This document shows, piece by piece, positions 7,775 to 36,750 of a stretch of 64,000 nt of DNA (position 1 is its first letter; each line of letters begins with the position of its first letter). A program made the position numbers and the translations under genes. The notes beneath the pieces are model-generated. The model worked only from the letters and a program-made list of their open reading frames with translations, made no database searches and was not told where the DNA came from. Source of the stretch: Candidatus Poribacteria bacterium (GTDB lineage Bacteria > Poribacteria > WGA-4E > WGA-3G). Location: NCBI GenBank assembly GCA_963668035.1, contig OY764073.1:4743308-4807307 (forward strand), read 5' to 3'.

Positions 7775-7839
7775 AATTGAGAGTTTTTCTTTACTTTTCA
7801 AAAAAATCAGAAAAAAGAATACCGCACTCGGAGGCGAAT

Positions 7840-8223
7840 GTGAAAGAATTACTGTTGGCAGATGCGAATAGGCTGTCCGACTCCCGATCTGAATACGAAG
7901 CAACCCGACAGCAGATAGATAGGGCAGACTACAAAACCCTTACGCTGAGTGAGGCAGACTTTTACGACCTCGTTTTCATGGAAGCGAATGACTCCGTCGC
8001 AACAAATCCAAACGCGATTTCTGCCATTTTTTATCAAAACTTTCTACTAAACCTCCGCCGAATTCATTCGGAGTCTGTCACGGCAGCGGTTCGCCTTCGT
8101 TGGCAGTCCGCTCGGCATAAAGTGCCTGCAGCCGAGTCGTTACGGGACCGATGCTTTCGTTTCCAATCTTTCTGCCGTCAACTTCAAGTACTGGACTCAG
8201 CTCACCGACAGTGCCGGTCGTGA
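7840..8223 (+). CDS. Hypothetical small protein; the 3' part runs antisense into ilvE
   Basis: GTG at 7840 lies 5 nt after GGAGG. The N-terminal ~80 aa look protein-like. The frame stays open about 145 bp into the convergent ilvE, so the true stop is uncertain. Confidence 0.25.
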   Translation: MKELLLADANRLSDSRSEYEATRQQIDRADYKTLTLSEADFYDLVFMEANDSVATNPNAISAIFYQNFLLNLRRIHSESVTAAVRLRWQSARHKVPAAESLRDRCFRFQSFCRQLQVLDSAHRQCRS

Positions 8224-24156: not shown

Positions 24157-24527
24157 TACCATTTTCATTTTCTCCGACGGGTTAGGGTCTGTTGGTTTAG
24201 GTTCGGGGTGCGACAGAATGTCGACCTTTCGTCAATTGAATAGCCCTGCTATTTTGCGTCCGTCCTATAATTGTTTTCCATCGCGTTGGAGGCGTCTATC
24301 CTACAGACGACGTAAAGTCTCCCTGAACCGGTGCGCAAAGGCACCAGTGGATGTGGGGGTTCAGTGCATCCGTATGGAGAGGCACTGAACAGTGTGGAAT
24401 GCAAGGCACAATAACGACCTTACGAATTCCCGTTTTACGAACTGGGAATGCAGACTTCGTGAAGCACGTTCGGGTTGAAAAATCCCTCTGCCACTATACG
24501 ATCCCGAGATCCTGCCGTGTCTCGGAA

Positions 24528-25125
24528 CCCTCCACGACTCAGTGAGATTTTAAACAGTCTTTTTACGTGGGCATCAAATCCGTCAGGTTGCTGTAAGACT
24601 GTTAGCACCAAACAACCTGCCCACGACTCTTTGAGATTTTGATGGAACCTTTTACAGACTACAGGAAAATCAACAGGTTGACGAGAGGGATACCTTTTTT
24701 ATTTTAAGAATAGATATCATACACCGCTTTTTCAGACGGGGTACACGATGCAAAAACTGTTCGTTGATGCAGGGTGCATGTTGATATGTATTGATTAAAA
24801 CGGTATGAGAACTTCGTTCCAGTGCAGGCAGATATGTGAACACTGCTCACTGAAAGAACCCCTGCTTTCCATTTTCCTGTAACGTAGGTGTTCGCTGATG
24901 CCATCAGTGTCAGTTCGACCTTCTGTACTCTGTGAGATTTTAGACGACATGTTCTTATGGGATAGTATCTATCGGTGGTTGTGTTGATGTCGACCAGCAA
25001 CTCCCACTCCCACGACCGTGTAGGTATTTACGCGACGTTCCTCCATGTTGGTATTTTTCCGTCTCCATTTGGTGTCGCGCGTTCCAAGGAGACTGCCCAC
25101 GGACTCTTATTTCGAGATTTCGAGC
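24528..25125. repeat. Degenerate dispersed repeat motif CCCACGACTC-n-TGAGATTTT(A/G) (4 copies) in a 1.6-kb non-coding stretch
   Basis: Copies lie at about 24531-24556, 24613-24640, 24925-24946 and 25094-25125. There is no convincing ORF between 24157 and 25800. Confidence 0.4.
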
Positions 25126-25803
25126 GACGGTTTGCGGTGTAAAAGTTGGGTTCCCGTGTTGTCGCTGCGTCAGGGAGCCGCCCGCACCTCTAAAGAGTAT
25201 CGCACCTCGCAAAAGTCGTATTGGGCGTTGCATTCTCAATCACGTGTTAATTATACGATATTTTTTGGGTGTAGGGAAATAGAAAATGCGTCAAAATATT
25301 GTGATTCTATTGTTTATCTATGTATGATTCAATTTTTGTGCATTTTTTTCGGCGGTCAGTTATCAGTAAGTTGGCTATCAGCAGAGAAAAAATATATTGT
25401 TGTCTGCGTTTCTGTGAAAGTTATGAAATTTCACAGTATTTCACAGTAAGGATTCAAAAAAGTGTTTCGGTTACGGCTACGAAGTAAGGTGTGGCAAGGG
25501 TTTTGAAGGGACTATGAACCTTATCAATTTTTTGCGTACCTGTGAAATTATGATTTTAATGTGCGGGTTGTTTTGCTGACAAACGCAGTGGCGGGACGGG
25601 TTTACGGGCGTTTCTATTTTTGACACTTAAAACGAGTTGCTGTGAAATGTTTGTTGATGTGTCTAAGGTTCTGGGATCGTTGTTTTGCGGCGCGTTGTTA
25701 TGTTGTTAGGATGTGGTGCACTGCACGTCGGATCGCTGCCAAAAACTTTACACACCCGCAGTGTTACGTTTCTTAGCCATTACGCCCCTCCCATAAGTTA
25801 GGT

Positions 25804-26523
25804 TTAAAGTGTTTCTGTCTTTAGATAGCGTTTTAGAAATTCATCCAGGTTGAAGCAACATTCTTTGTACTTCTTGCCGCTTCTGCACAGACACGAACTA
25901 TTTAGGCAGGACTTTATAGGTTCAACGTCGTTAAAGTGACATTTTTTGTATTTCTTGCCACTATCACAAGGACACAAGTCGTTTCTACCAAGGTCGTACC
26001 GCGCGTAATTGATCATTTCAGCGAGGTACTCTCTGATCCCTTCGTCACCATGTGAGTATTCTTCCCAACGATCATTGTTACTCACATCAGTACCGAATTT
26101 TTCCACGTAAGAAAGACGATAGAAAAATGGAATTACGCGTTCGTGCATAAAAGATTTAATTCTAAGAGTTTGGTTCTCAGGACGTTTTATGCCTAGACAA
26201 CAAGTATTATCCTCTGGATTGATATGCAAATCAATGATATTAACGTTGCATTTTTGGGCGATTTCACGGTGCCTTTTACCGACTTCATATACTTTTGGCC
26301 ACCCATTCATGTCCAAATCTTCTAAGCATATTTCAACCTCAAAAACATCGCGAATCAAGAAACCTATTTCATCAGCAAAATTGCCAATTATCACTTTTCT
26401 CGCCTTGTCATCGTACACAGCACAGAAGTCAAGTTCACCTATGATTTTCCGGCATTTTTCGTCATATTGCAGGTTGGGAAAATGTCTATTTAACCATTTG
26501 ATTTCATCGGTACTTATCTTCAT
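25804..26523 (-). CDS. E2 (UBC)-like protein with two C-terminal SEC-C zinc-finger motifs; candidate CBASS Cap2-short partner
   Basis: LHINPEDNTCCLGI resembles the UBC HPN...ICL catalytic motif. CPCDSGKKYKKCH and CLCRSGKKYKECC are SEC-C motifs. It lies 6 bp downstream of the SMODS cyclase gene. Confidence 0.45.
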   Translation of the reverse strand: MKISTDEIKWLNRHFPNLQYDEKCRKIIGELDFCAVYDDKARKVIIGNFADEIGFLIRDVFEVEICLEDLDMNGWPKVYEVGKRHREIAQKCNVNIIDLHINPEDNTCCLGIKRPENQTLRIKSFMHERVIPFFYRLSYVEKFGTDVSNNDRWEEYSHGDEGIREYLAEMINYARYDLGRNDLCPCDSGKKYKKCHFNDVEPIKSCLNSSCLCRSGKKYKECCFNLDEFLKRYLKTETL

Positions 26524-26529
26524 GGCACA

Positions 26530-27498
26530 TTACCTTGCGTAGAGTTTTGGAGGACTTACGATAACAGGAGCAACCCCTTTATTTCCGTTATTATCTTTAA
26601 GTTCTCCAAAATTGTCACCGAACAACTCTCTCCACTTTTTGACACTTGCATTATGTTCCTTGGCATCAAACGCTTCGTTTATCTTAGCGTTGTAAAGGTC
26701 GAACATTTCTCGAAAGTGACGATATTTGTCTTGGTCCCAGTGTCTTGTAAAACTTTCTGTGGATAAGACTGGATTGCAAATTTCCGGCATAAAGACATTA
26801 GACTGCAAAAAACTGTTTATCCTGTTTGAAACCGTTTTTAGGGACATTGGAATATCCTTAAAACCTTCGCTACCTTCATCGCTAGCATAAACACTGTTAC
26901 CAATCAGGGTGGTTAGAAGGATTGATTTTACAGAAAAGTTACCTTTGTGGTCACGGAGAAATTTTAACAACCGCGTAACCCGCTTTAGGTTTCCATTAGT
27001 CATTCTTGTTTTTTCATTGAACCAATCTCTATAGCCAGTGCCATCAGTGAGTTCAAATTCATTTTCCTTGTTATTACAGATGAAGTACTTTTCCTCTTGC
27101 GTGAGCCAATCTTGTTGGGTAATGCATGGGACAATATCTAAGTGGAAGTCACCAGCATAATCGATATAGACACATCTCGTTCTTCTATGTACCTTATCCT
27201 TATAATTGTCGTTTCCTTTCAAACAATTATAGACATCATTAATGTAATCCCTAGGTTCTTTGTCCTCATCGTACGTCATGTACAAGAGCAGATCCGCGTC
27301 ATATTCGCGCGTCCCGACTGGTTTGATAATTGTTTTCAAACCGTAAGATCCCTGTCGCTCCGTTTTTTCGTACAAATCTAAATTTCCACTGAGGAACGTA
27401 TTCACAGCCGAGGAACTATTATTCAATCTTTGAAGCCTACTCTCATTGAGGTTTACCTCTTGGGAAAGGAAGTCTTGGAAATACTTTATATGCTTCAT
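26530..27498 (-). CDS. SMODS-domain nucleotidyltransferase (second CD-NTase-like cyclase, 322 aa)
   Basis: The GS motif QGSYGLKT, the DxD motif YDADLLLYM and a third acidic residue in CVYIDYAGDFHLDIVP form a pol-beta-type NTase core typical of CBASS cyclases. Confidence 0.65.
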   Translation of the reverse strand: MKHIKYFQDFLSQEVNLNESRLQRLNNSSSAVNTFLSGNLDLYEKTERQGSYGLKTIIKPVGTREYDADLLLYMTYDEDKEPRDYINDVYNCLKGNDNYKDKVHRRTRCVYIDYAGDFHLDIVPCITQQDWLTQEEKYFICNNKENEFELTDGTGYRDWFNEKTRMTNGNLKRVTRLLKFLRDHKGNFSVKSILLTTLIGNSVYASDEGSEGFKDIPMSLKTVSNRINSFLQSNVFMPEICNPVLSTESFTRHWDQDKYRHFREMFDLYNAKINEAFDAKEHNASVKKWRELFGDNFGELKDNNGNKGVAPVIVSPPKLYAR

Positions 27499-27640
27499 TG
27501 ATTTGATTCTCCTTATCTATTAATTGAAAACTCAAAAAAGATCAATGCTGTGTGCCAATTTGCCACTTTTGGGAGGGGGCGTAAAGCCTTTGACACTAAA
27601 TTCGGCACGGCGTTTGTTTTCTAAGGCTCCTCACATAGCA

Positions 27641-27800
27641 CTCCGCTAGAGTGCAAGGAGGGTACCTGTCTTTTCTATAGACATATTGCTCCGCTGGAGC
27701 AAAGAGACCTCTTTACAGATAACGACTTCTTCACGCCAGAGGCGTGATATGTCTATAGAAATCAATATCATTCGTAGCTGCACTCCAGCGGAGCGCTATG
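27641..27800. repeat. Degenerate inverted-duplicate member of the MITE-like TCTATAGACATAT repeat family
   Basis: TCTATAGACATATTGCTCCGCTGGAGC and GTGATATGTCTATAGAAA...GCACTCCAGCGGAGCG form inverted repeats. It shares the CATAGCACTCC(GCT/TAC)GGAGTGC palindrome with the copies at 44226 and 46909. Confidence 0.55.
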
Positions 27801-27865
27801 TGTTGACGAAGGATCGATCGATGGAAACCCCTCTATAACGAGACACTGCCGAAATATTTACACCC

Positions 27866-29032
27866 TTACTTGATTTTGAGCACTGTTCTTAATCCATTCC
27901 GGTCATCATATTCACATGCGAAAATCTCGGGGTCTGATTTTGGCAGAAGAACTCGCCCACATTCAACTGCAATCGGTGCTGGAACTGCTGGGATAATGGA
28001 GATCTTGCAGGAGTCTCCATGGACAGTCTGAATTTCGTTCAGCAATTTCCTATATTCTCGACTGAATCCTTCCAACTGCTTACGAGATTTCAAAAAATAT
28101 ACAGAAGGTTCGTCAATGGTTATTTCATAAATGCTGAAATTCTCCGAAATCAACCCTTCGTATCGGGTGCTATCAATTTTGCCGCTTAGAGACAATACGA
28201 TTGCAACGTTCCCACCACTCTTGTTAATATGGAGAGGGTTCACAATATAACATGTTTCTGTACCTTTTTCTTCCTCGGGCCAGGACCAGGTATGGTTTGT
28301 GTCATCAATATTTCTGTGTGACTGGTACAAATCCGCTGGAAGAGTATCACCAATGCACTTTCCCAAGGACATTAATAGTGGCATGGGACCGATGGCGAAC
28401 ACAGAAAGATGTTTAATCTTTCCTTCATCTACTCCTTCCTCAAAGTGCCACTTGATTTTTTGCTGAATCTCGCTTGCAAAAATCTGCCAGTACTCTGAGT
28501 CTCTATGACCGTCAAAATTGTTATTAATGATGTTAATTCCTTTTTCATCAGTTGGGTATTTGGGAAACATTGCATTACGATATGTCTCGGAGTTAATCGG
28601 AACAATTCTATCGCCTATATTCACGGAGAATAATAGGACAGTAGATTTATGAATATCCTCTGGATGTCTGGTTTGAATTTCAATTCTGTCCTCATGCTTC
28701 CATTTCCACTCGCTCAACAACTCTGGTGGGTATTTATCGGGATTATCATCAATTTCCTTATGGCATCGTCGGCACAGCAGCATGAGATTAGAGAATTCAA
28801 TTTGTAGATTCGTAGACTCTTTGTTCCCTCTTGGGCCATCTTGACTCGCTGCGATAATGTGCGTTACCTCCCCAAAATTTCCATCGGTTAACGTCAGGTC
28901 ATTACGCCAAACGAGTTTGTTACAGCCGCTAAATTCACAACGTCCTGCCGACCTGCCGAATAATTTCAACTTAGTATGCAGCGGAACGTTTTTGCGCGTA
29001 ATTTTGGGTTCTGGTTTCTTATCCTTAGCCAT
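27866..29032 (-). CDS. cap5: Cap5-like CBASS effector: N-terminal HNH endonuclease fused to a C-terminal SAVED domain
   Basis: HNH motif GRCEFSGC...EVTHIIA...NLMLLCRRCHKEID is present. A ~250-aa C-terminal domain consistent with SAVED follows. The gene is immediately downstream of a CD-NTase gene. Confidence 0.65.
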   Translation of the reverse strand: MAKDKKPEPKITRKNVPLHTKLKLFGRSAGRCEFSGCNKLVWRNDLTLTDGNFGEVTHIIAASQDGPRGNKESTNLQIEFSNLMLLCRRCHKEIDDNPDKYPPELLSEWKWKHEDRIEIQTRHPEDIHKSTVLLFSVNIGDRIVPINSETYRNAMFPKYPTDEKGINIINNNFDGHRDSEYWQIFASEIQQKIKWHFEEGVDEGKIKHLSVFAIGPMPLLMSLGKCIGDTLPADLYQSHRNIDDTNHTWSWPEEEKGTETCYIVNPLHINKSGGNVAIVLSLSGKIDSTRYEGLISENFSIYEITIDEPSVYFLKSRKQLEGFSREYRKLLNEIQTVHGDSCKISIIPAVPAPIAVECGRVLLPKSDPEIFACEYDDRNGLRTVLKIK

Positions 29033-29223
29033 ATGTTCAATCTCCTTTTTTCTGTTGTGATAGGTTCAGAATTTGGTTGTTTAATACCTACTGATAATCC
29101 TTTTGAATGAAAGGCAATTCAAAAAATACTACTCTTCAAAAAAATGGCCATGGAAAACCAAAAGTTATGTGTTGCAGCAGATCCGTTAATTATCAAAGCG
29201 ATAGTCTACAAAGCGTCCCTAAA

Positions 29224-30783
29224 CTACTCGATATTTACAACGAATTCTCCACTCCGTGCACAGCATATACTGTCTTTGACAATAAAGCATTCAATCCAAT
29301 GGACACCTTTGTATCGGGTACTTTCTTTCCGTATCGCACCCTCTGTTTCAATAGTGCCTTGGTAGAAGCCTCCACGAAGCCCATTTTCTTTATATGCCTC
29401 GGGTCCAGTATTTACAACTTGCCAATGAACTTTGTAAGGTCTCGGGACATTCGTTTTTGCCTCAAACCGTAATGAACAGGACTTCGGTAATGGTGTTGAA
29501 TCACTTTTGATTTGCCATGGCCGGAATCCTTTTCGAGAAACTGTCCCTGTAATTGTTACTTGCCCATTTGGAATCACGGGCCATTTTGGTTTCTGCCGAT
29601 GAGACACATTAAAACGAGTCAATTCCCAAGAGAGGCTTGCGGCAAGCGTAGAACCATAGTGGATCTTTCCTTCAGAGAGATTTCGCATTGCTTTGTCGAC
29701 AATTTGTTCTCCCAAGTGCGGTTTTAGTGATTTCCTAACGCTCTGGATATCACTGATTTCTAACGCGTAGGTTAGATCTAACTGTGCCTGTTTAATCCAA
29801 TCCATGAAACACTCCTTTCGGATAGGATGTTCCTGCCATTTATCGGCAAAGTTCTCAAGTGGATTTACTGGATTGCGTATGAGAGTCATGCCATTATCAT
29901 CACGTTTAATATGCTTATGCATGTTACTTACGACATTTAACAGGGCTTCTTGAAGGTCGGCTTCGTTGTTGTAAGCAAGAGCGGCGAGTGTCGTAATGAT
30001 GATAGAAATCGGTTTAGCCTTTTCATCGTAATGAGATTTGTTTTCTTCAAACCAGATGTCACGGTGTCGTTTTAATATCTGAATTGTTCGCTGAAGTGGC
30101 GTTTTGATTTTATACTCCGGAACATCCTCAACTCGCAGTTGAATCGATTCAGCAAGAGACTTTCGGATCGCGTTGAATTGAATTTCCATACAATTTTTGA
30201 ACCATTCTGCATATCCCTTTGGATTACTACAAGGCCAGTCTGGATGGATTCGCATGTAATTAGGATAAGTCCTATCGGTGATGGCAATCGCGAAATCTGA
30301 CCAGTTAGACTTTGGATAACCTTTTGATTCAAGAAGTTGTCTGAATGACTCTGAGTCTGGAATCGCGGGCAAAATATCCATGTGGAATTGGACATCATCA
30401 GCGTAATGAAGCGTCCAACAACGTCGCCCTTCTTCTGCTGGCGAATTCATGTTGCGCGCGTTAGCATAAAGCTTGATTTCCTCACCAACTAAATTCTTTA
30501 GATATGCTTGGCTAATTGTGTTTTTCTGAAGACTCAACTCGCTGACAAGGTCTATGTCATACTCCTCGGCATCGGAAATAGGTTTAGTGACCGTACCAAG
30601 TAGGAACGAACCTTGGGGATAAACTTCGGGATTGTCCTGAACAACTCCAGATTTATCCCGTTCAAGCCAATCACCGATAGATTTATAGCGTTCTACGGCA
30701 CGTTCGTAATAACTTGTAGGGATATCCAATGCATCAGATATAGCTTCAAGCAGTGGACTGAACTGTTCTGAATAAATGTGCAT
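29224..30783 (-). CDS. cGAS/DncV-like nucleotidyltransferase (CD-NTase, 519 aa)
   Basis: PQGSFLLGT is the GS motif, EEYDIDLV the DxD motif and a later DVQFHMDILPA supplies the third Asp. The gene lies between capV and cap5. Confidence 0.65.
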   Translation of the reverse strand: MHIYSEQFSPLLEAISDALDIPTSYYERAVERYKSIGDWLERDKSGVVQDNPEVYPQGSFLLGTVTKPISDAEEYDIDLVSELSLQKNTISQAYLKNLVGEEIKLYANARNMNSPAEEGRRCWTLHYADDVQFHMDILPAIPDSESFRQLLESKGYPKSNWSDFAIAITDRTYPNYMRIHPDWPCSNPKGYAEWFKNCMEIQFNAIRKSLAESIQLRVEDVPEYKIKTPLQRTIQILKRHRDIWFEENKSHYDEKAKPISIIITTLAALAYNNEADLQEALLNVVSNMHKHIKRDDNGMTLIRNPVNPLENFADKWQEHPIRKECFMDWIKQAQLDLTYALEISDIQSVRKSLKPHLGEQIVDKAMRNLSEGKIHYGSTLAASLSWELTRFNVSHRQKPKWPVIPNGQVTITGTVSRKGFRPWQIKSDSTPLPKSCSLRFEAKTNVPRPYKVHWQVVNTGPEAYKENGLRGGFYQGTIETEGAIRKESTRYKGVHWIECFIVKDSICCARSGEFVVNIE

Positions 30784-30799
30784 ATTTCAAAATTCCTTC

Positions 30800-31735
30800 T
30801 TATTTATGGAAAGCATTGAAGGGTTCAGTGGGATTACGCAAAAAAACCTCGCGGAGTTTAGGCAACGCGTGCCGAGCTTGAAACGTCCCAAGACCTTTCA
30901 AGGAGTCAATTTCTTCTATTCCGTCCAAACTAAATTTCCCTTTGGACACATCTTCGTCAATTCTGATGATGTTATCGTGTCCTGCAAGAAGTTGTGCTGT
31001 TCCGAGAGACGCACTAGATTGTGCATGCATAAATACATCAAGAAGCTTAAATGCCCAATATGATTTACCGAGCGGACTTTTTCGTCCTCTGTTAACGTTC
31101 AATGGCTCAGTGGTACAACCTAAACTTAAGACCTTTAGAGAATCCCTCGGCCAGTCAAGCACCGTAATTGCCTCAACAACAGACATTCCAACAGGGTTAT
31201 TTGCCCATACACCGCCATCTATCAAAGGAGTTCCAACAGGAGAACGATGAGTGGGAAAGTAAGTTGGAGCGGCAGTGGCTGCTAGAGCTACATCAACTAC
31301 TTTTTCCTTGTAGTCTGTTTCTAATCGTGGATGATGGGCAGTTTTGTATATGCGAACTTTGCCGTTCTCAAGATTTAACGACGGAACAACGAGCCGATTC
31401 CTACTATCGCCCAGTTTCTTATCACCGAAACAGGTTTCTAATGCTTCCTTAAGCGGAGCACTACTATACTTAGTAGTCCCAGGCCACCTGAATTGACGGA
31501 TCCCACGGTTTCCACCAAAGATGACAGGGCCAAACTCCTCGTAAAAATTTAATAATTCCTTTGCAGACAACCCTAGACCTAGACCAAGGGCAATAATTCC
31601 ACCTGTTGAGGTGCCAACGATTAGGTCGAAATAATTCGCTACATTGTCCCCAATAGTATCTTCAACAGTAGCGAGAAAAGATGCGGGACACACGCCCTTA
31701 ATTCCACCACCGTCAATTGTTAGAATCCGTTTCAT
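30800..31735 (-). CDS. capV: Patatin-like phospholipase (CapV-like CBASS effector)
   Basis: DGGGIKG oxyanion motif, GTSTGG serine-hydrolase motif and DGGVWANNP (Asp of the dyad) are present. It sits 16 bp upstream of the CD-NTase gene, as in capV-dncV. Confidence 0.8.
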   Translation of the reverse strand: MKRILTIDGGGIKGVCPASFLATVEDTIGDNVANYFDLIVGTSTGGIIALGLGLGLSAKELLNFYEEFGPVIFGGNRGIRQFRWPGTTKYSSAPLKEALETCFGDKKLGDSRNRLVVPSLNLENGKVRIYKTAHHPRLETDYKEKVVDVALAATAAPTYFPTHRSPVGTPLIDGGVWANNPVGMSVVEAITVLDWPRDSLKVLSLGCTTEPLNVNRGRKSPLGKSYWAFKLLDVFMHAQSSASLGTAQLLAGHDNIIRIDEDVSKGKFSLDGIEEIDSLKGLGTFQARHALPKLREVFLRNPTEPFNAFHK

Positions 31736-31884
31736 CAGTTTACCTCCATTTACAGAGAGGTCATTTGGAAAAAACTAATTGATTTTCTTGCGATTTCATT
31801 AATTTTTGGAATCTTTAGTCAAGTGTCACAAGAGCCGGATATGGTCCCGCTCTTCCAACGACGAAAACCAACTGGCTCTGATTG

Positions 31885-32193
31885 TTAAGGTTTCCTTGGT
31901 TTTGTGACAACCAATTCAAATTCTCTATTCTCTCGTTGAGCGGCACTACGTCTGAACGTGGAATGCTGCTCTTGATGAGCATCAACAGTACTGGGAGTTT
32001 CAACCTCAACAATCTTGGTTCGATTCCTTCGTGTTGCCAGAATGTCAGGAATTCTTCCATTGTTACCGATTGGATCCGGCTGATCGAAATTCGGTAGATC
32101 AGCCTGAACTTTCCACCCTTTTTCTTTAAGCTCTTTTGCAAGAGTCCGAACTCTATTATCATGGGTGGATTGGTTTCTACTTTGCCTCCTCAT
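31885..32193 (-). CDS. Small PD-(D/E)xK (Hjc/restriction-endonuclease-like fold) protein leading the CBASS operon
   Basis: ELKEKGWKV...RIPDILA...KIVEVET matches the Hjc-like motif order (PDI..A ... hEVE). The overlapping ORF 31815..32162 on the same strand looks non-protein-like. Confidence 0.35.
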   Translation of the reverse strand: MRRQSRNQSTHDNRVRTLAKELKEKGWKVQADLPNFDQPDPIGNNGRIPDILATRRNRTKIVEVETPSTVDAHQEQHSTFRRSAAQRENREFELVVTKPRKP

Positions 32194-32254
32194 TGCAAAT
32201 CCTCCTATTTGTAGGGTAAGATATATGTGTATATAATACCATTAATAAATTCAT

Positions 32255-32281
32255 GTGTCAAGGAAAATTTAAAATTTGACA
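32255..32281. promoter_or_regulatory. Palindromic candidate operator GTGTCAA-N13-TTGACAC in the AT-rich divergent promoter region
   Basis: A perfect 7-bp inverted repeat lies in the ~310-bp, very AT-rich gap between the CBASS operon start (32193, minus) and the HTH-peptidase regulator start (32507, plus). Confidence 0.4.
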
Positions 32282-32506
32282 CTTTTTAATTGGAAAATTA
32301 TTACTCTTATATTTTTGTATTATATTTTAATTTTAATATATATTTTAATTTTTATTTAAACAATTATAATATATATTAAAAAATATGTCAAAAAATTAGG
32401 TGAATTCCCTAAAAAAAACCGATGTGTTTTTTGTCTTTACTTAAAAGTGTGTTTTCTGATATATTATATTTGCATGTATATTATCATTTGGGAGGAAGTA
32501 ACTGTC

Positions 32507-33745
32507 ATGAAATTAGGAGAGCGTCTTCGTCTCATTCGTAAAGAGAAAAAGTTGACCCTGAAAGATTTGGGTGAACTCGCGGATCTATCCGTGCCTTATC
32601 TTTCAGGTATGGAGCGTGGTGTTGTTAACCCTTCTGTAGAAACCCTACACAAAGTTGCCAAAGCTTATAATATGACAGTCCAAGACCTTTTTAGTGGTGT
32701 GGAAGAATTAGGGGAATCGACACATACTACGTATCCTACAGGATTTGAATCCTTTCTAAGGGACTTCGAGTCTAGTTATGAGATTATTAGTGATGACTGG
32801 AAAGAATTACTGCTAAAAATCAACTTTCGCGGCAGGCGGCCGTCCTCTCAAACGGAATGGCTTGAATTATATCTTTCTCTCAGACGAATTCTTTCACCCA
32901 AGGAGGAAAAGGTGAACGATCCGAAAAAGCATGTTATCAAATTGGTTCAGGATACTGTGAAAGAATATAGTTCAACTCAGTTGCCTAATTTTGGCGAAAT
33001 ATGCACTGGCTTGGGGTTAGATGTACAAGAAGTCTCGTTACCAGACGGGATAGACGGGATGCATAGAGGAAGAATAATTTTTATTAATTCCCAGATTCAG
33101 AATGAAGAGCGTAAGCGATTTACCCAATTTCATGAAGTCACACATTATTTGATTGAGAAGGATGGAGATATAATCTCTGATCTTCACGATACTACTTGGA
33201 ACCAGGATGATGGATACGAAAGGCAATTAGAACAGTTTTGCAATATTGGTGCGGCTGAGTTTTTGATGCCTAGGAAAATATTCGCGGGACTCTATAAAGA
33301 AAGGGAGTTTAATATTGAACTGATACCATATGCTGCGCGTTACTTTGGGAGTTCGACAACAGCGACAACTATACAACTTGCTCAAGTTGCCCCAAATTCG
33401 TGCATTACTGCTGTTTGTGAATTAATAGATAGTGATGCAGAATCGTCGCAAACTCGTCTTTCTGGCGCAAAGGATAACTCCACCAAGCAAAAATTGCATG
33501 TAACCTATTCTGCCTCGGCCCCCTCAACTAAATATTTGTTAGCAAAATACACAGAGATTCCTGGGGACCATCTGATCAATCAAGCATTTTCGCAAAGCCA
33601 ATCGGTTGGAGGGGAGAGTTACGTCCCCTTTCGAAGCGGTAAGAAAATGCCTTGCTATTGTGAAGCTTTGGCAGATGGTGATAGGGTTTATGTATTATTT
33701 CATTTGACACCCCCACCGGACCCTAACCAAATGTCATTGTTGTGA
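32507..33745 (+). CDS. Fused XRE-family HTH plus ImmA/IrrE (M78) zinc metallopeptidase regulator (CapH-CapP-like)
   Basis: ATG 32507 follows GGGAGGAAG. The N-terminal HTH is LTLKDLGELADLSVPYLSGMERG. The central HEVTHY (HExxH) lies in an ImmA/IrrE-like context. It is divergent from the CBASS operon. Confidence 0.7.
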   Translation: MKLGERLRLIRKEKKLTLKDLGELADLSVPYLSGMERGVVNPSVETLHKVAKAYNMTVQDLFSGVEELGESTHTTYPTGFESFLRDFESSYEIISDDWKELLLKINFRGRRPSSQTEWLELYLSLRRILSPKEEKVNDPKKHVIKLVQDTVKEYSSTQLPNFGEICTGLGLDVQEVSLPDGIDGMHRGRIIFINSQIQNEERKRFTQFHEVTHYLIEKDGDIISDLHDTTWNQDDGYERQLEQFCNIGAAEFLMPRKIFAGLYKEREFNIELIPYAARYFGSSTTATTIQLAQVAPNSCITAVCELIDSDAESSQTRLSGAKDNSTKQKLHVTYSASAPSTKYLLAKYTEIPGDHLINQAFSQSQSVGGESYVPFRSGKKMPCYCEALADGDRVYVLFHLTPPPDPNQMSLL

Positions 33746-33792
33746 TCATATTCCACTACACTAGTAGATAGTCACAAATTACTCCCACTGAC

Positions 33793-36750
33793 TTAATCAA
33801 CATACCAACTCGGAAAAGGGGTACCCTTCAGTTTAAGCTTCGCCAACTCCGCGTCAAGATCACACTTAGACTTCTTCCCGCCGTGGATACTTGGTTCAGC
33901 ACAGAGCATCTCGCGTAGCGTTTGCATTGACTCCAAAACGTTAGCACTCGTAATTCCTAACACCTTAGTTAACAGACCGCGATCCAATTCTTTGCGTACA
34001 GGGTCGTGGTTACATTCGTTAAGAGGCAACATCCGCTTATATTTTAAGCGTTCAAAGAGTGCCTCAGCGTTTGCTAACGCTGCATCCGAAAGTTCACGCA
34101 CATCCAGTGTCGGCAGACTACTTAAGGTTTTTAACCTCAATTTCCCGCGTCCAGCAGTCTGTTTGCCGCTGTGCAACCAGTGGCAGAAGAGTCCTAAGGT
34201 TGAATTGCACCACAGGGTCCATGGAATTTCATGCCGTGGATTTTCAAAAGCCACGTTCGTTATTAGGGTTGGACCGATAGCAGGTTTCTCAGTGAAAAGA
34301 GCCATTATTGAACAAGCGGTGAATCGCGGCACCATGTTGTAATGTGCTTTGCTATTTCGATCCATTCGCTTTTGCACCGCGATTTCGGCTTTGGGAAGGG
34401 GAATCGCGCGTGAATCTGGGAGGACGAGCATTGAGCGTTGGACTTCACTGTTTGCATTCCAGATACAAGGATACCCGTCGCTGTCAGGTTTATATCCGTT
34501 CTCTTTACGAAAGACACCTCTCACCTCAGCGAGGCCCAAAGTCGCAATATCTCCCACACGACAGATAGGAATTTTAATAATCGTTTCTTGTCGTTTTTGC
34601 ATCGGTAATTCTAATCTACCCCTTTTCAGGCGTTGTGCAGATTGGAGGAGTGCCATTGACTTGACGCGCGTTGCAACCCAGCCTTCATCTGCCGGTAATG
34701 GGCAATCGAGTGTATGTCCGAGGGTCTCCTCGCCGATCTTCATCGCATCGCCGCCGCTGGGAGTATCTTCTAACCGGTACGCCCCATTACTTCGGATGAT
34801 TCGGTTTGTAATCTCAAAAGCCTCAAGTAGACTCTGTGGACGTTGATTTAGACAGACAAATTTGCCACGCCCTGTGCTATCGCCTTTCCCCTTTGTTGCT
34901 ACAATGATACACTCCGCCATGTCCGTATCGGCAGAAAAAGCACAGTCAGTACCTTTTGCTTCAGCGATAGTTATGACAACTACATCGTGATATTCTGTTG
35001 CCCATAGATCACGGACCTTTTGCGAAGTCGGTGAGGCGAGTACCGTAGCAGGTAATATAAAACCCATCGTTCCGTTTCGTTTAAGCATCCTATCCGCTAA
35101 TTCTATAAAGTATGCGCTCAGACCTGCTTGTCCATCGGCAACCTGTGTTTTTTTCTTCCTGAGTATTGTTTGCATGATTTTTGTATATTCTTGAGGTCGG
35201 TCGCTGCCTTGAAAGGGGGATTTCGCGCCATCTATACCAGCAGGGTATGCGCCTGGTTTCGTAAAAGGAGGATTTTGAATAACGACATCAAATTTTCCGT
35301 ACGGAAAAGCGCGTTGAAGGTCAACTATCCTGTTTTCTTCGCCGCCGATCTGTTCAGCATCCGTATCAAATAACTTTATATCATCAAGCAATTCAAGTGA
35401 ACCAACTGCGTAATCACCGTTGTCTAATTTACCATAAGGTGCGGTGAGAATACGTGTTCCTCCCAATTTCATATCGGCATACCTACTTGCTAGGGCAGCA
35501 GCCGTTAGGTGTGTGGCATTCGGCATAACATCTGCACCAGCGATGTTTTCCTCAAGCATCTTTTGATGGATATCCCTACCGTTTCCGCCTCGCTGTTCGT
35601 ATAGGGTTAAAATACGTTGATATACACCATTGAGAAGCGCGCCTGTTCCACAAGCAAAATCCGCCACTTTCGGAAGCTTGCCTTTCGGCAGTTCAGGCAT
35701 CACGAGGGTTGATAACAACACCGCGCTCTCTGGTAGCGTATAGTTCGCCTTGAGGTATTTCCTATCGGTGATCAATTTTTGAAAGACTATGCCCGCGAGT
35801 TCATGGATTTGCGCGATGCCGGTGTCAACGAGGTCTTTTGCAGCTTCACACAGGAGCATTAAGATAGGCTTAACCAGTCTATCGTCGGTAGCCAGTGCTT
35901 CAACGAGATTAAGAGCATCTCCAAAGATCGGACGATAGTTGACCTTGAGAATCGTATTCCAGTCCGCGATAACATCCGCGTAATCAATTGTAGGTAGGAG
36001 TTGGCGGAGTGAACGGACCGATCCCATCTCCACTTTACCGGCGAGAGAACTCTGAAATACAAAGGCATCGGTGATAATTAGGGCTGCCATGCGGAGGGTT
36101 TGGATGTTCAGTTTTTCTGCTGTATCGCCATCTTTTTTAGAGAAAACCTCTTGCTGCAGAATTGTCTCAATTTTCGTACCAACGGCACGGTGTTCAGTGA
36201 TAGCGTTTTCAAGTAAGTAGGCTGCCTTGTTGACACTTTTTTCCATCTCTTCTGCTGCCTGTTCCAATTGCGCGTTTGGCATTGCGCCGACGTAGAGTGG
36301 ATTGGCGATGTCTTCTACCGTGCCAGTTGCCCATCCATTTTTTGGAAAGTGTCCGATGATGTCTCCGAAGGTACTAATGAGTTTATATTGTAGGTCATCT
36401 GCGGTGTTTAGTTGTGGTGTAATATCTTTTCCGCGCAGTGTTTTAAAACGGTCAGGATATAGAATCGCCATAACATTGTCGAGGGTTTTCGCGGCGGTAA
36501 AGTACTCCGCTTCCAATTCGTAAACAAGTCTTGATTCTGCTTGTTCGATGAGTTTTTTGGCATTGGTAGCAGTAGCGAATTTAGCCTCAATCCCGATGGG
36601 TTCTCTACCTCGCTCGATCACAAGCGCGTCAAGTTCGCTGTTGCCTTTGATGAAGGCATGGATAGCCGTTTCGACTTCCCAGTCGTGGCGCATGTTTCGT
36701 AGGATATTCACCAAGTGATTTGTAATTGTGGTTTCGTGTTGACTCGGCAT
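33793..36750 (-). CDS. Type IIG/IIL-like restriction-modification fusion enzyme (N-terminal PD-ExK-like nuclease region, gamma-class N6-adenine methyltransferase, C-terminal TRD)
   Basis: SAM motif I VADFACGTGALLNG precedes motif IV VIQNPPF. The N-terminal DALVIERGREPIGIEAK is a putative D...ExK. It is a 985-aa single polypeptide. Confidence 0.65.
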   Translation of the reverse strand: MPSQHETTITNHLVNILRNMRHDWEVETAIHAFIKGNSELDALVIERGREPIGIEAKFATATNAKKLIEQAESRLVYELEAEYFTAAKTLDNVMAILYPDRFKTLRGKDITPQLNTADDLQYKLISTFGDIIGHFPKNGWATGTVEDIANPLYVGAMPNAQLEQAAEEMEKSVNKAAYLLENAITEHRAVGTKIETILQQEVFSKKDGDTAEKLNIQTLRMAALIITDAFVFQSSLAGKVEMGSVRSLRQLLPTIDYADVIADWNTILKVNYRPIFGDALNLVEALATDDRLVKPILMLLCEAAKDLVDTGIAQIHELAGIVFQKLITDRKYLKANYTLPESAVLLSTLVMPELPKGKLPKVADFACGTGALLNGVYQRILTLYEQRGGNGRDIHQKMLEENIAGADVMPNATHLTAAALASRYADMKLGGTRILTAPYGKLDNGDYAVGSLELLDDIKLFDTDAEQIGGEENRIVDLQRAFPYGKFDVVIQNPPFTKPGAYPAGIDGAKSPFQGSDRPQEYTKIMQTILRKKKTQVADGQAGLSAYFIELADRMLKRNGTMGFILPATVLASPTSQKVRDLWATEYHDVVVITIAEAKGTDCAFSADTDMAECIIVATKGKGDSTGRGKFVCLNQRPQSLLEAFEITNRIIRSNGAYRLEDTPSGGDAMKIGEETLGHTLDCPLPADEGWVATRVKSMALLQSAQRLKRGRLELPMQKRQETIIKIPICRVGDIATLGLAEVRGVFRKENGYKPDSDGYPCIWNANSEVQRSMLVLPDSRAIPLPKAEIAVQKRMDRNSKAHYNMVPRFTACSIMALFTEKPAIGPTLITNVAFENPRHEIPWTLWCNSTLGLFCHWLHSGKQTAGRGKLRLKTLSSLPTLDVRELSDAALANAEALFERLKYKRMLPLNECNHDPVRKELDRGLLTKVLGITSANVLESMQTLREMLCAEPSIHGGKKSKCDLDAELAKLKLKGTPFPSWYVD

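What the first reader, a model, noticed from the sequence alone, without database searches (positions are those of the whole stretch)
32194..33745. Fused HTH-ImmA/IrrE regulator divergent from CBASS, with a palindromic operator in an extremely AT-rich promoter
CapH (HTH) and CapP (M78 peptidase) are usually separate genes that derepress CBASS after DNA damage. Here they are one polypeptide with an extra ~130-aa C-terminal domain. The shared ~310-bp promoter region is about 80% AT and contains the GTGTCAA-N13-TTGACAC palindrome (32255-32281). This points to damage- or phage-inducible control of the whole composite operon.
Basis: partly seen in the sequence, partly recalled or inferred. Interest (0 to 1): 0.55.

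Follow-up and report, generated by a model that had tools for sequence, protein, structure and literature searches.

The report
Fused repressor-protease switch beside CBASS
One gene joins a DNA-binding repressor to the protease that normally destroys it and sits head-to-head with an anti-phage CBASS operon. This kind of fusion is already described, the "extra" domain is a normal part of the protease, and the proposed palindromic operator is not conserved in relatives.

Summary
The gene is real: 32507-33745 (+), 412 aa. It has an XRE-type HTH, an intact HExxH M78 peptidase, and a divergent six-gene CBASS cluster.

It is best described as an end-to-end fusion of a DdrO-like repressor and an IrrE-like protease:
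- aa 1-130 are 50% identical to Deinococcus DdrO, and the DdrO cleavage site aligns to F107|R108.
- aa ~136-412 match IrrE.

The "extra" C-terminal ~130 aa is IrrE/CapP's own GAF-like domain. It is also present in unfused relatives.

Most relatives, nearly all Candidatus Poribacteria, carry two overlapping genes. Small frame-shifting indels or loss of the stop fused them several times. The former ribosome-binding site and start codon survive inside the fused ORF.

XRE-COG2856 fusions (Makarova 2009) and CapH-CapP fusions in CBASS (Lau 2022, 15 systems) are already reported.

The palindrome exists at 32255-32282, with a 14-nt spacer, not 13. Its left arm is the conserved -35 box of the defence-operon promoter. 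Its right arm is absent from all nine close relatives aligned. A weak RDRM-like 17-mer at 32396-32412 is a better, still unproven, operator candidate.

Verdict: a new member of a known kind, of modest interest.

The parts
32507..33745 (+). Fused repressor-protease gene, 412 aa including the stop codon
   Evidence: ORF and translation; Pfam and PADLOC domains; 50-odd full-length fused homologues at 57-92% identity
32507..32896 (+). DdrO-like part, aa 1-130: XRE HTH (aa 1-66), flexible linker, three-helix dimerisation domain
   Evidence: Aligns end to end with DdrO 6rnx (E 1.5e-32); 50% identity over 130 aa; Foldseek hits to DdrO 6jq1/6rnx; helices at 80-90, 96-104 and 115-129 in the model
32825..32830 (+). 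Codons F107-R108: predicted scissile bond, aligned to DdrO L106|R107
   Evidence: Alignment SRIEL|RGKRP against KINF|RGRRP. The DdrO cleavage site is taken from PMC12828697. [F/L/Y]-R-G is conserved in all fused homologues aligned.
32900..32914 (+). AAGGAGG-N5-GTG inside the ORF: former intergenic Shine-Dalgarno and peptidase start codon, now read as K-E-E-K-V136. Possible internal start.
   Evidence: Sequence. In split relatives the peptidase starts at the homologous GTG/ATG, overlapping the repressor's stop. The SD and start are also retained in an independent fusion type.
32912..33742 (+). IrrE-like part, aa 136-412: M78 peptidase, HTH-like linker domain, GAF-like C-terminal domain (strands from aa ~299)
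   Evidence: phmmer hits 8slm (4e-32) and 3dte (2e-29), aligned to aa 403; Foldseek 3dte/8slm E about 1e-19 with target TM 0.66-0.73; AF2 mean pLDDT 82
33131..33145 (+). HEVTH zinc-binding and catalytic motif (H209, E210, H213). The third ligand, E242, is at 33230-33232.
   Evidence: Sequence; invariant in 77 homologues; no cysteine-switch Cys: DIISDLHD resembles IrrE's DLLSDLHD
32194..32506 (.). 313-bp AT-rich divergent control region
   Evidence: GC 0.197; 13 promoter-like sites across 31700-33900 against 5.7 expected, the four best in this 313-bp region
32255..32282 (.). The left arm is the -35 of P1; the right arm is specific to this window.
   Evidence: Right arm absent in L001, L002, L003, L040, L041, L043-L046. 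As RNA it folds at only -7 kcal/mol, z = -2.0.
32233..32261 (-). P1: TTGACA-17-TATTAT with TG, proximal promoter of the AHJR-like/CBASS genes
   Evidence: 11 of 12 matches; both hexamers conserved in close relatives
32363..32391 (-). P2: TTGACA-17-TATAAT (12 of 12), distal promoter. It holds the position that the single CBASS promoter holds in most relatives.
   Evidence: alignments
32396..32412 (.). TTAGGTGAATTCCCTAA: RDRM-like 17-bp palindrome (TTAGG-N7-CCTAA), the best operator candidate
   Evidence: One of two matches in the window to TTANG-N7-CNTAA; the other (25780) is not conserved. Same position in L040/L041 (identical), L001, L012 (TTACGAAAATTCCGTAA) and L013. Canonical RDRMs occur upstream of the Chloroflexota homologues. 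Weak: 1.9 bits on the Deinococcus matrix, and 4.3% of shuffles give such a palindrome.
32436..32465 (+). Regulator promoter: TTTACT-18-TG-n-TATATT
   Evidence: CTTTAC(T/C)TAAAA and TGnTATA(C/A)T are the best-conserved blocks across 23 loci.
31885..32193 (-). 102-aa AHJR-like (PD-(D/E)xK-type) gene, the first gene divergent from the regulator
   Evidence: Pfam PF18743, E 1e-5, just below the cut-off. Same position in L002, L007, L044-L048. 77 homologue clusters.
25804..31735 (-). Mosaic CBASS cargo: patatin (30800-31735), CD-NTase+AGS_C (29224-30783), HNH-SAVED (27866-29032), CD-NTase (26530-27498), E2/SEC-C (25804-26523)
   Evidence: Pfam and PADLOC. Relatives carry the sub-units separately.

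Best explanation
This is a single-chain version of the DdrO/IrrE (= CapH/CapP-class) repressor-protease switch. It guards a defence island in a Candidatus Poribacteria-like genome.

Shown by sequence:
- aa 1-130 form a full DdrO-type repressor: HTH, dimerisation domain, and the D97...R108 pair and F107|R108 loop that correspond to DdrO's buried cleavage site.
- aa 136-412 form a full IrrE-type metallopeptidase with a GAF-like domain.
- The two halves are joined by five residues that are the translated ribosome-binding site of a formerly separate, translationally coupled peptidase gene.

Inferred by homology:
- Dimers bind an operator in the 313-bp divergent region. They repress the minus-strand promoters P1/P2 (AHJR-like gene plus CBASS) and probably the regulator's own promoter.
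- DNA damage or phage replication, sensed as ssDNA by the peptidase/GAF part as in IrrE/PprI and CapP, activates cleavage at F107|R108. The tether suggests this occurs within the same chain or within a 1:1 complex.
- Cleavage separates the HTH from most of the dimerisation domain, so DNA binding is lost and the defence genes are induced.

The operator is more likely the RDRM-like 17-mer at 32396-32412 than the 32255-32282 palindrome. An internal SD+GTG may additionally yield free peptidase.
For: - Domains and motifs.
- End-to-end similarity to DdrO (E 1.5e-32, 50% identity) and IrrE (E about 1e-32, through the GAF-like domain).
- Fold match to IrrE, DdrO, then CapP.
- Cleavage-site residues conserved.
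- The mechanism of DdrO/IrrE and CapH/CapP comes from the literature.
- Divergent defence cargo is conserved: CBASS in 18 of 22 informative Poribacteria loci and in Chloroflexota.
- The fusion is real and selected. There are about 50 fused clusters from independent assemblies and three junction types.
- Canonical RDRM sits over the -10/TSS of the CBASS promoter in Chloroflexota relatives, and an RDRM-like site sits at a fixed position in several Poribacteria loci.
Against: - Nothing has been tested biochemically.
- The RDRM-like site scores only 1.9 bits on a Deinococcus matrix. G/C at positions 4/14 never occurs in Deinococcus sites.
- That site lies just upstream of both -35 boxes rather than over a promoter core.
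- In many relatives only its right half (ATTCCGTAAAA) is conserved.
- Covalent attachment could interfere with DdrO-type dimerisation. The model's inter-domain geometry is uncertain (pTM 0.62).
- Internal gaps of 191 and 367 nt leave open whether the distal CBASS genes are co-transcribed.
Confidence: 0.6

Rival explanations
1. The GTGTCAA-N14-TTGACAC palindrome (32255-32282) is the operator. Its half-sites, two helical turns apart, would be bound by a dimer or tetramer of the fused protein, occluding the -35 of P1.
For: A perfect 7-bp inverted repeat with G/C-containing arms is rare by composition alone (1.8% of shuffles; none in whole-window shuffles). It overlaps a promoter -35. Deinococcus RDRMs of the TTATGTCA-T-TGACATAA type contain TGTCA/TGACA.
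Against: The right arm is absent in every close relative (L001 TTTTTACTAC, L002 TTTTCCCTAC, L040, L041, L043-L046), although the regulator is 80-92% identical there. The left arm is fully explained as a conserved TTGACA -35. The 21-bp centre-to-centre spacing does not fit the 17-bp DdrO site. The Deinococcus matrix gives a negative score.
Confidence: 0.1
2. The protein is a non-proteolytic regulator. The peptidase-like and GAF-like part acts only as a ligand sensor (as in M. tuberculosis PrpR/RamB-type HTH-M78-like proteins), or blocks oligomerisation without cleavage (as in Rir/Crh).
For: Foldseek also hits Mtb PrpR structures (6cyy, E 3e-6). Non-cleaving COG2856/XRE pairs exist. Four invariant or near-invariant cysteines (C245, C299, C383, C385) could form a sensor site.
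Against: The HExxH motif and the third Glu ligand are invariant in 77 homologues. The DdrO cleavage loop and its D...R partner are conserved. There is no DUF2083/PrpR C-terminal domain, and RamB matches only at the HTH (E 0.007). The match to proteolytic IrrE is far stronger than to PrpR.
Confidence: 0.12
3. The regulator is the organism's general DNA-damage (RDR-like) regulator, as DdrO/IrrE is in Deinococcus. Its adjacency to CBASS merely reflects a defence-island insertion hot spot.
For: It is closer to DdrO/IrrE than to CapH/CapP. The scan returned one locus per Poribacteria genome record. It keeps a fixed chromosomal position between conserved housekeeping genes while the cargo varies: CBASS types, AbiTii, AriA/PtuA-like ATPase, CoiA-like.
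Against: The divergent arrangement with shared promoter architecture is conserved across Poribacteria and Chloroflexota. No conserved additional RDRM-like sites were found in the 64-kb window or in 27 loci; hits occur at the background rate. Local control of whatever defence cargo is present fits the CapH/CapP literature.
Confidence: 0.1
4. The fusion is an assembly or frameshift artefact, or a decaying pseudogene.
For: Fused and split forms differ by a small frame-shifting indel or a stop codon at the junction.
Against: About 50 fused clusters at 57-92% identity come from many independent assemblies, including Illumina MAGs and a single-cell genome. Both halves are fully conserved with no other disruptions. 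There are three distinct in-frame junction types.
Confidence: 0.03

Closest known systems
Deinococcus DdrO / IrrE (PprI) radiation-desiccation response switch
   Same: The N-terminal 130 aa align with the whole of DdrO (50% identity), including the recognition helix, the CTD, D96/R107 and the L|R cleavage loop. The C-terminal 277 aa align with IrrE's peptidase, linker and GAF-like domains. An RDRM-like 17-mer lies in the control region, and canonical RDRMs occur in Chloroflexota relatives.
   Different: It is one polypeptide instead of two unlinked genes. It sits next to anti-phage genes, not a DNA-repair regulon. It comes from a different phylum (Poribacteria). The operator match is weak.
CapH / CapP of CBASS (Lau et al. 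2022), including the 15 reported CapH-CapP fusions
   Same: An HTH repressor and M78 protease are placed divergently from CBASS. PADLOC capH and capP models hit. The protease has the same three-domain layout with a GAF domain. The fusion state is already reported for 15 CBASS systems, and capH/capP-like genes are reported next to other defence systems, including a fusion-like protein beside a DISARM system.
   Different: Sequence similarity to the solved Thauera/E. coli proteins is only distant (E 8e-5 and 3e-4). There is no cysteine-switch loop. The repressor's C-terminal domain is of the DdrO type.
Generic XRE-COG2856 fusion proteins (Makarova et al. 2009; e.g. M. tuberculosis Rv2515c)
   Same: HTH and zincin-like peptidase lie in one chain. 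That paper already proposed a LexA-like autoproteolytic logic.
   Different: Those proteins are mostly linked to RelE/PIN toxin genes, and the COG2856 domain described there is only about 160 aa. This protein carries a complete DdrO CTD with a recognisable cleavage site.
ImmR / ImmA of ICEBs1
   Same: An M78 protease cleaves an XRE repressor in a loop between its last helices after DNA damage.
   Different: ImmA has no GAF-like domain, the two are separate genes, and similarity is very low.
LexA / lambda CI (analogy only)
   Same: A repressor whose DNA-binding and dimerisation parts are separated by damage-triggered cleavage, carried out by a protease domain in the same chain.
   Different: The fold and catalytic type are unrelated (Ser-Lys dyad against zinc metallopeptidase). 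The trigger is RecA*, not direct ssDNA binding.

Membership tests
XRE-HTH + M78/COG2856 (ImmA/IrrE) repressor-protease modules | XRE-type helix-turn-helix DNA-binding domain | tested here: met
   HTH_3 E 4.4e-13, aa 7-61; the model superposes on the DdrO NTD 6rnz with target TM 0.96
XRE-HTH + M78/COG2856 (ImmA/IrrE) repressor-protease modules | M78 domain with HExxH and a downstream Glu zinc ligand | tested here: met
   Peptidase_M78 E 2.6e-15; H209, E210, H213 and E242 invariant in 77 sequences
DdrO/IrrE (Deinococcus type) | DdrO-specific C-terminal dimerisation domain with a basic cleavage loop (L106|R107) and D96 | tested here: met
   Full-length alignment. D97-W98 and F107|R108-G-R-R-P correspond to D96-W97 and L106|R107-G-K-R-P. 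Conserved in fused homologues.
DdrO/IrrE (Deinococcus type) | Protease with peptidase, HTH-like linker and GAF-like domains | tested here: met
   phmmer alignment to 8slm/3dte through aa 403; Foldseek target TM 0.66-0.73 over about 265-270 columns
DdrO/IrrE (Deinococcus type) | Repressor and protease are separate proteins | tested here: not met
   Single 412-aa ORF. Split in L009-L024, fused in the window clade.
DdrO/IrrE (Deinococcus type) | 17-bp RDRM operator (TTAYGY-N5-RCRTAA) in target promoters | tested here: inconclusive
   The site at 32396-32412 has the right length and symmetry but scores 1.9 bits. L012, L013 and L001 score about 8 bits, and L025/26 score 19.6 bits.
DdrO/IrrE (Deinococcus type) | Controls a DNA-repair regulon | tested here: not met
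   Within the window and 27 related loci. The neighbours are defence genes. No conserved extra sites in 455 kb scanned. A genome-wide test was not possible.
CapH/CapP (CBASS regulator) | Encoded next to, and divergent from, a CBASS operon | tested here: met
   Conserved in 18 of 22 informative Poribacteria loci and in L025/26.
CapH/CapP (CBASS regulator) | Matches the capH and capP family models | tested here: met
   PADLOC capP 5.5e-25 and capH 1.6e-8. Only distant from solved CapP 7t5t and CapH 7t5u.
CapH/CapP (CBASS regulator) | Internal cysteine-switch loop (present in only 33% of CapP, so not strictly defining) | tested here: not met
   There is no Cys at the position of the CapP cysteine-switch segment ('FQCSD' in the 7t5t alignment). 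The segment reads DIISDLHD, as in IrrE.
CapH/CapP (CBASS regulator) | ssDNA-stimulated cleavage of the repressor and damage-induced CBASS expression | not testable with these tools
   Requires biochemistry or reporters; known for E. coli MS115-1
PrpR/RamB-type HTH-M78-like metabolic regulators | C-terminal DUF2083/Fe-S CoA-sensing domain; no proteolysis | tested here: not met
   No such Pfam domain. The RamB model hits only the HTH at E 0.007. Structural similarity is distant (6cyy, TM 0.4-0.5).

The most novel reading that the evidence does not exclude
The fused protein is a LexA-like, self-cleaving, single-chain DNA-damage switch of the DdrO/IrrE lineage. It has arisen at least five times in sponge-symbiont Poribacteria, through small indels or stop loss at a translationally coupled gene overlap. 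Because the old Shine-Dalgarno and start codon are kept inside the ORF, the locus would make two products: a tethered repressor-protease and a free protease. It would use an RDRM-type operator outside Deinococcus to couple genome-damage sensing to whatever defence cargo occupies the island (CBASS, AbiTii, PARIS/Septu-like ATPase).
Probability: 0.3. Interest if true: 0.5.

Novelty: new member of a known kind. Interest (0 to 1): 0.3.

Why it matters
It extends the DdrO/IrrE switch, usually presented as a Deinococcus speciality, to uncultured sponge symbionts and Chloroflexota. There it regulates anti-phage islands. This supports the view that CapH/CapP and DdrO/IrrE are one continuous family.

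The repeated toggling between two-gene and one-gene forms is a natural experiment. It suggests the protease acts on its repressor in a 1:1, probably intramolecular, complex, which matches the recently described IrrE-DdrO heterodimer.

For annotation, the practical points are these:
- The C-terminal domain is not new.
- The conspicuous palindrome is promoter hexamers, not an operator.

Tried and rejected
- **Palindrome as operator.** Rejected by comparison with 9 close and 20 more distant orthologous control regions.
- **Palindrome as RNA hairpin or terminator in the P2 leader.** It folds at only -7 kcal/mol, z = -2.0, with no U-tract.
- **C-terminal domain as a novel addition.** Rejected by the IrrE alignment, the fold search and unfused homologues.
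- **Cysteine-switch regulation as in Thauera CapP.** The Cys is absent.
- **Deinococcus-RDRM matrix scan of the window.** The top hit (25780-25796, 13-15 bits) lies just past the last CBASS gene. It is not conserved in relatives and occurs at the background rate of 16 hits per 455 kb, so it is chance.
- **Chloroflexota L025/26 as fusions.** They first looked fused in tblastn but are split by an in-frame TGA.
- **NCBIfam.** It gave only generic HTH hits.
- **Strong internal promoters or terminators inside the CBASS cluster.** Nothing above background, so co-transcription is unresolved.
- **Other candidate operators.** AT-only palindromes near -10/TSS and a CAAATT-N10-AATTTG repeat in the L017-L024 group could not be separated from chance in 80% AT DNA.
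- **tRNA or integration-site search at the island edge.** None found.
Full report
**The observation**

The region holds one ORF on the + strand. Its biologically sensible start is the ATG at 32507, preceded by GGGAGG at 32491-96, and its N-terminus MKLGERLR matches DdrO's MKLHERLR. The ORF ends at 33745 and encodes 412 aa.

- Pfam finds HTH_3 at aa 7-61 and Peptidase_M78 at aa 168-287.
- PADLOC finds capH at aa 1-102 and capP at aa 143-303.

The divergent minus-strand cluster is:
- an AHJR-like 102-aa protein,
- a patatin phospholipase,
- a CD-NTase with an AGS_C domain,
- an HNH-SAVED nuclease,
- a second CD-NTase,
- an E2-like SEC-C protein.

The intergenic region 32194-32506 is 313 bp with GC of about 0.20. 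The palindrome is real but has a 14-nt spacer: GTGTCAA-N14-TTGACAC at 32255-32282. The N13 form does not occur.

**What the protein is**

A sequence search of the PDB gave a clearer identity than "HTH-ImmA":
- aa 1-130 align end to end with Deinococcus DdrO (129 aa, E 1.5e-32). Identity is 50%.
- aa 158-403 align with IrrE/PprI (8slm at 6e-32, 3dte at 5e-29).
- The solved CapP (7t5t) and CapH (7t5u) reach only 8e-5 and 3e-4.

DdrO is cleaved by IrrE between L106 and R107, in the loop between its last two helices. That bond is buried in the dimer, with D96 contacting R107. Here the aligned residues are F107|R108 (KINF|RGRRP against SRIEL|RGKRP) and D97. [F/L/Y]-R-G is conserved in every fused homologue aligned.

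An AlphaFold model built on 77 homologues has mean pLDDT 82. Confidence is low only in the DdrO inter-domain linker (68-74), the fusion joint (132-134), one GAF loop (309-326) and the C-terminus.

Foldseek against the PDB ranks the hits as follows:

| Hit | E-value | Note |
|---|---|---|
| IrrE/PprI | about 1e-19 | target TM 0.66-0.73 over about 265-270 columns, i.e. the whole IrrE including its GAF-like domain |
| DdrO | about 5e-10 | |
| Thauera CapP | 6e-7 | |
| M. tuberculosis PrpR | 3e-6 | |

The catalytic residues H209, E210 and H213 and the third ligand E242 are invariant in 77 homologues. There is no cysteine-switch Cys. The segment reads DIISDLHD, like IrrE's DLLSDLHD.

**The "extra" C-terminal domain**

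It is not extra. Lau et al. describe CapP, like IrrE, as peptidase plus HTH-like linker plus C-terminal GAF domain. In the homology search, about 50 full-length fused proteins (57-92% identity) are followed by dozens of 276-288-aa stand-alone proteins. These are 60-76% identical over aa ~137-412 and include this domain.

**How the fusion arose**

A scan of species-representative genomes returned 39 loci. Of these, 24 are close relatives, nearly all Candidatus Poribacteria MAGs, and 3 are Chloroflexota.

- In L009-L024 the repressor and peptidase are two genes whose stop and start overlap or abut. An example is ...GAGGACAAAAGTGAATGA..., where the peptidase GTG lies in the +1 frame.
- In the window clade the junction is one base shorter (AAGGAGGAAAAGGTGAAC), so the frames coincide.
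- L007 carries an in-frame TAG.
- The Chloroflexota pair has an in-frame TGA.

Three distinct junction types exist among fused proteins: SPKEEK-VND, FPQRGTK-MQLSVND and SPKEEIIDRKAI-MNHM. In an NJ tree of the peptidase part, fused and split forms interleave at five or more places. In the second junction type the old stop TAA is still present but out of frame (ACT AAA ATG).

In all types the former Shine-Dalgarno and start codon persist. In the window these are AAGGAGG at 32900-06, 5 nt, then GTG at 32912. This internal site is at least as good as the gene's own ribosome-binding site, so internal initiation of a free peptidase is plausible but unproven.

The fusion is clearly functional rather than an artefact. 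It occurs in many independent assemblies, and both halves are under conservation.

**Genomic association**

tblastn of the window's proteins against the loci shows CBASS genes immediately divergent from the regulator in 18 of 22 informative Poribacteria loci. The units are patatin-CD-NTase-E2, CD-NTase-E2-HNH-SAVED, or CD-NTase+AGS_C-HNH-SAVED.

The Chloroflexota homologue is divergent from a PNP-SAVED effector plus CD-NTase.

Other relatives have different cargo in the same position:
- AbiTii (L040, L045),
- a CoiA-like nuclease (L044),
- AriA/PtuA-like ATPases (L010, L049/50, the latter followed by a type I R-M).

Synteny (L003, L005, L009) places the whole island between conserved housekeeping genes. 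The module therefore behaves as a portable or generic defence-island regulator, most often paired with CBASS. This matches what Lau et al. reported for CapH/CapP-like genes.

The window's cluster is a mosaic. A CD-NTase+AGS_C/HNH-SAVED unit sits between the patatin gene and the CD-NTase/E2 of the common unit, leaving gaps of 191 and 367 nt. No strong internal promoters or terminators were detected. Control of the entire cluster from the divergent region is therefore plausible but unshown.

**The control region and the palindrome**

The consensus scan finds two strong minus-strand promoters and one plus-strand promoter:

| Promoter | Strand | Sequence | Coordinates |
|---|---|---|---|
| P1 | - | TTGACA-17-TATTAT with TG | 32261..32233 |
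| P2 | - | TTGACA-17-TATAAT, perfect 12 of 12 | 32391..32363 |
| Regulator promoter | + | TTTACT-18-TGnTATATT | 32436-32465 |

TTGACA/TGTCAA occurs three times in 313 bp against 0.17 expected (p about 0.001).

The left arm of the palindrome is P1's -35. It is conserved, with its -10, across relatives. The right arm TTGACAC is replaced by TTTTTACTAC, TTTTCCCTAC, TTTTCATAC and similar sequences in all nine close relatives aligned, whose regulators are 77-92% identical to this one.

A 7-bp G/C-containing inverted repeat is rare by composition alone (1.8% of shuffles). Even so, this one is best read as two oppositely oriented -35-like hexamers, one of which is window-specific. As an RNA hairpin it is weak: -7 kcal/mol, z = -2.0.

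**A better operator candidate**

The recognition helix is nearly identical to DdrO's (LSVPYLSGMERG against ISVPYLSDLERG). I therefore built a symmetric matrix from 22 D. radiodurans RDRM sites, which follow TTAYGY-N5-RCRTAA (Table 2 of PMC8533742).

- The Chloroflexota loci carry a canonical RDRM, TTACGCTCTAAACGTAA, at 19.6 bits. It is the only such site in 17 kb. By my reading of the sequence it overlaps the -10/TSS of the divergent CBASS promoter. Two weaker sites overlap the two -35 boxes.
- L027 carries TTACGGTGTCAACGTAG.
- In Poribacteria a 17-mer occupies a fixed position about 95-111 nt before the start codon.

| Locus | 17-mer |
|---|---|
| window (32396-32412), L040, L041 | TTAGGTGAATTCCCTAA |
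| L001 | TTAGGTAAATTCCGTAA |
| L012 | TTACGAAAATTCCGTAA |
| L013 | TTACGAATATTACATAA |
| L045 | TTAAGAAAATTCCGTAA |

Many other loci keep only the right half, ATTCCGTAAAA.

The window site is perfectly symmetric in its outer 5 bp. However:
- It scores only 1.9 bits on the Deinococcus matrix.
- It sits 4 bp upstream of P2's -35 and 23 bp upstream of the regulator's -35, rather than over a core promoter.
- A perfect 5-N7-5 palindrome with at least 2 G/C per arm appears in 4.3% of shuffles.

I rate it the best candidate, at about one in three, not a demonstrated operator.

**Mechanism proposed**

Shown: the domain content, the conserved catalytic and cleavage-site residues, the promoter architecture and the conserved divergent arrangement.

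Inferred from DdrO/IrrE and CapH/CapP biochemistry:
1. Dimers formed through the DdrO-type CTD repress P1/P2 and the regulator's own promoter.
2. ssDNA produced by damage or phage replication activates the peptidase/GAF moiety.
3. Cleavage at F107|R108 detaches the HTH from the last CTD helix, and now also from the protease.
4. Dimerisation and DNA binding are lost, and the AHJR-like gene and CBASS are induced.

Two observations make an intramolecular, LexA-like cleavage attractive. IrrE forms a 1:1 heterodimer with monomeric DdrO. Lineages also switch freely between split and fused forms.

**Comparison with the known, and novelty**

- XRE-COG2856 fusions were described in 2009 as the majority state of that pairing, already with the LexA analogy.
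- Lau et al. list 15 CBASS systems with an apparent CapH-CapP fusion and a fusion-like protein next to DISARM.

The architecture and its reading are therefore known.

What this locus adds:
- A clear DdrO/IrrE-grade member, with cleavage site and GAF domain, outside Deinococcus-Thermus and tied to defence islands.
- Evidence for recurrent fusion at a coupled overlap, with the internal start signals retained.
- RDRM-type sites in Chloroflexota CBASS promoters.

I class it as a new member of a known kind, with interest 0.3.

Noticed in passing
window 31885-32193 (-): A 102-aa AHJR-like (PD-(D/E)xK-type) protein is the first gene divergent from the regulator here. It holds the same position in L002, L007 and L044-L048 whatever the cargo behind it (CBASS, AbiTii, CoiA-like). 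It is decayed in L001 and L003. There are 77 homologue clusters, almost all from Poribacteria-type metagenomes. It may be a conserved third component of the module.
   Followed up: partly
window 33793-36750 (-): A 985-aa Eco57I/N6-methylase-like protein lies convergent with the regulator, 47 bp downstream. It gives weak PglX, MAD2 and type IIG hits, and its N-terminal ~300 aa are unassigned. It is conserved in the same position in L001, L002, L003, L009, L010, L012, L013 and, judging by a convergent gene of similar size or with an Eco57I domain, probably L040, L041 and L043-L045. It is probably a separate defence or modification gene.
   Followed up: partly
window 25804-31735 (-): The CBASS cluster is a mosaic with two CD-NTases and two effectors. 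A CD-NTase+AGS_C/HNH-SAVED unit appears inserted between the patatin gene and the CD-NTase/E2 of the unit that is common in relatives. L020 and L022 carry two separate CBASS units on either side of the regulator.
   Followed up: partly
window 27499-27865: The 367-nt gap between HNH-SAVED and the second CD-NTase has normal GC. It carries short repeated words (CTATAGA..., CCAGCGGAG/CTAGCGGAG) and no strong promoter or terminator.
   Followed up: no
window 24200-25800: An ORF-poor stretch of about 1.6 kb lies between the conserved 729-aa gene and the end of the CBASS cluster. It has no tRNA and is possibly the decayed edge of the island.
   Followed up: no
window 25780-25796: TTACGCCCCTCCCATAA is the best match in the whole window to the Deinococcus RDRM matrix (13-15 bits). 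It lies 8 nt past the stop of the last CBASS gene. It is not conserved in relatives and occurs at the background rate, so it is judged chance.
   Followed up: yes
L025/L026 7844-7860 / 3265-3281 (Chloroflexota): A canonical RDRM, TTACGCTCTAAACGTAA, overlaps the -10/TSS of a CBASS operon (PNP_UDP-SAVED effector plus CD-NTase). The operon is divergent from a split DdrO/IrrE-like pair, and two weaker RDRM-like sites lie over the two -35 boxes.
   Followed up: partly
L024 about 7660-7900; L015 about 7900-7960: L024 has a tandem duplication of the whole CBASS promoter module. L015 has a TGTATAATTAC tandem just after the regulator's -10. The window, L001 and L002 likewise carry two copies of the promoter module (P1 and P2). 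The control region is prone to duplication.
   Followed up: no
L049/L050 1900-9266; L010 6115-7692: An independently fused (type-2 junction) regulator sits between an AriA/PtuA-like AAA ATPase (divergent) and a type I R-M operon (co-directional). L010, a split form, also has the ATPase.
   Followed up: partly
window protein aa 245, 299, 383, 385: Three cysteines invariant (C299, C383, C385) and one near-invariant (C245) in 77 homologues. C383 and C385 (MPCYCEAL) are Ala and Val in Deinococcus IrrE. This may be a metal or redox site in the GAF-like domain. It could not be checked without model coordinates.
   Followed up: no
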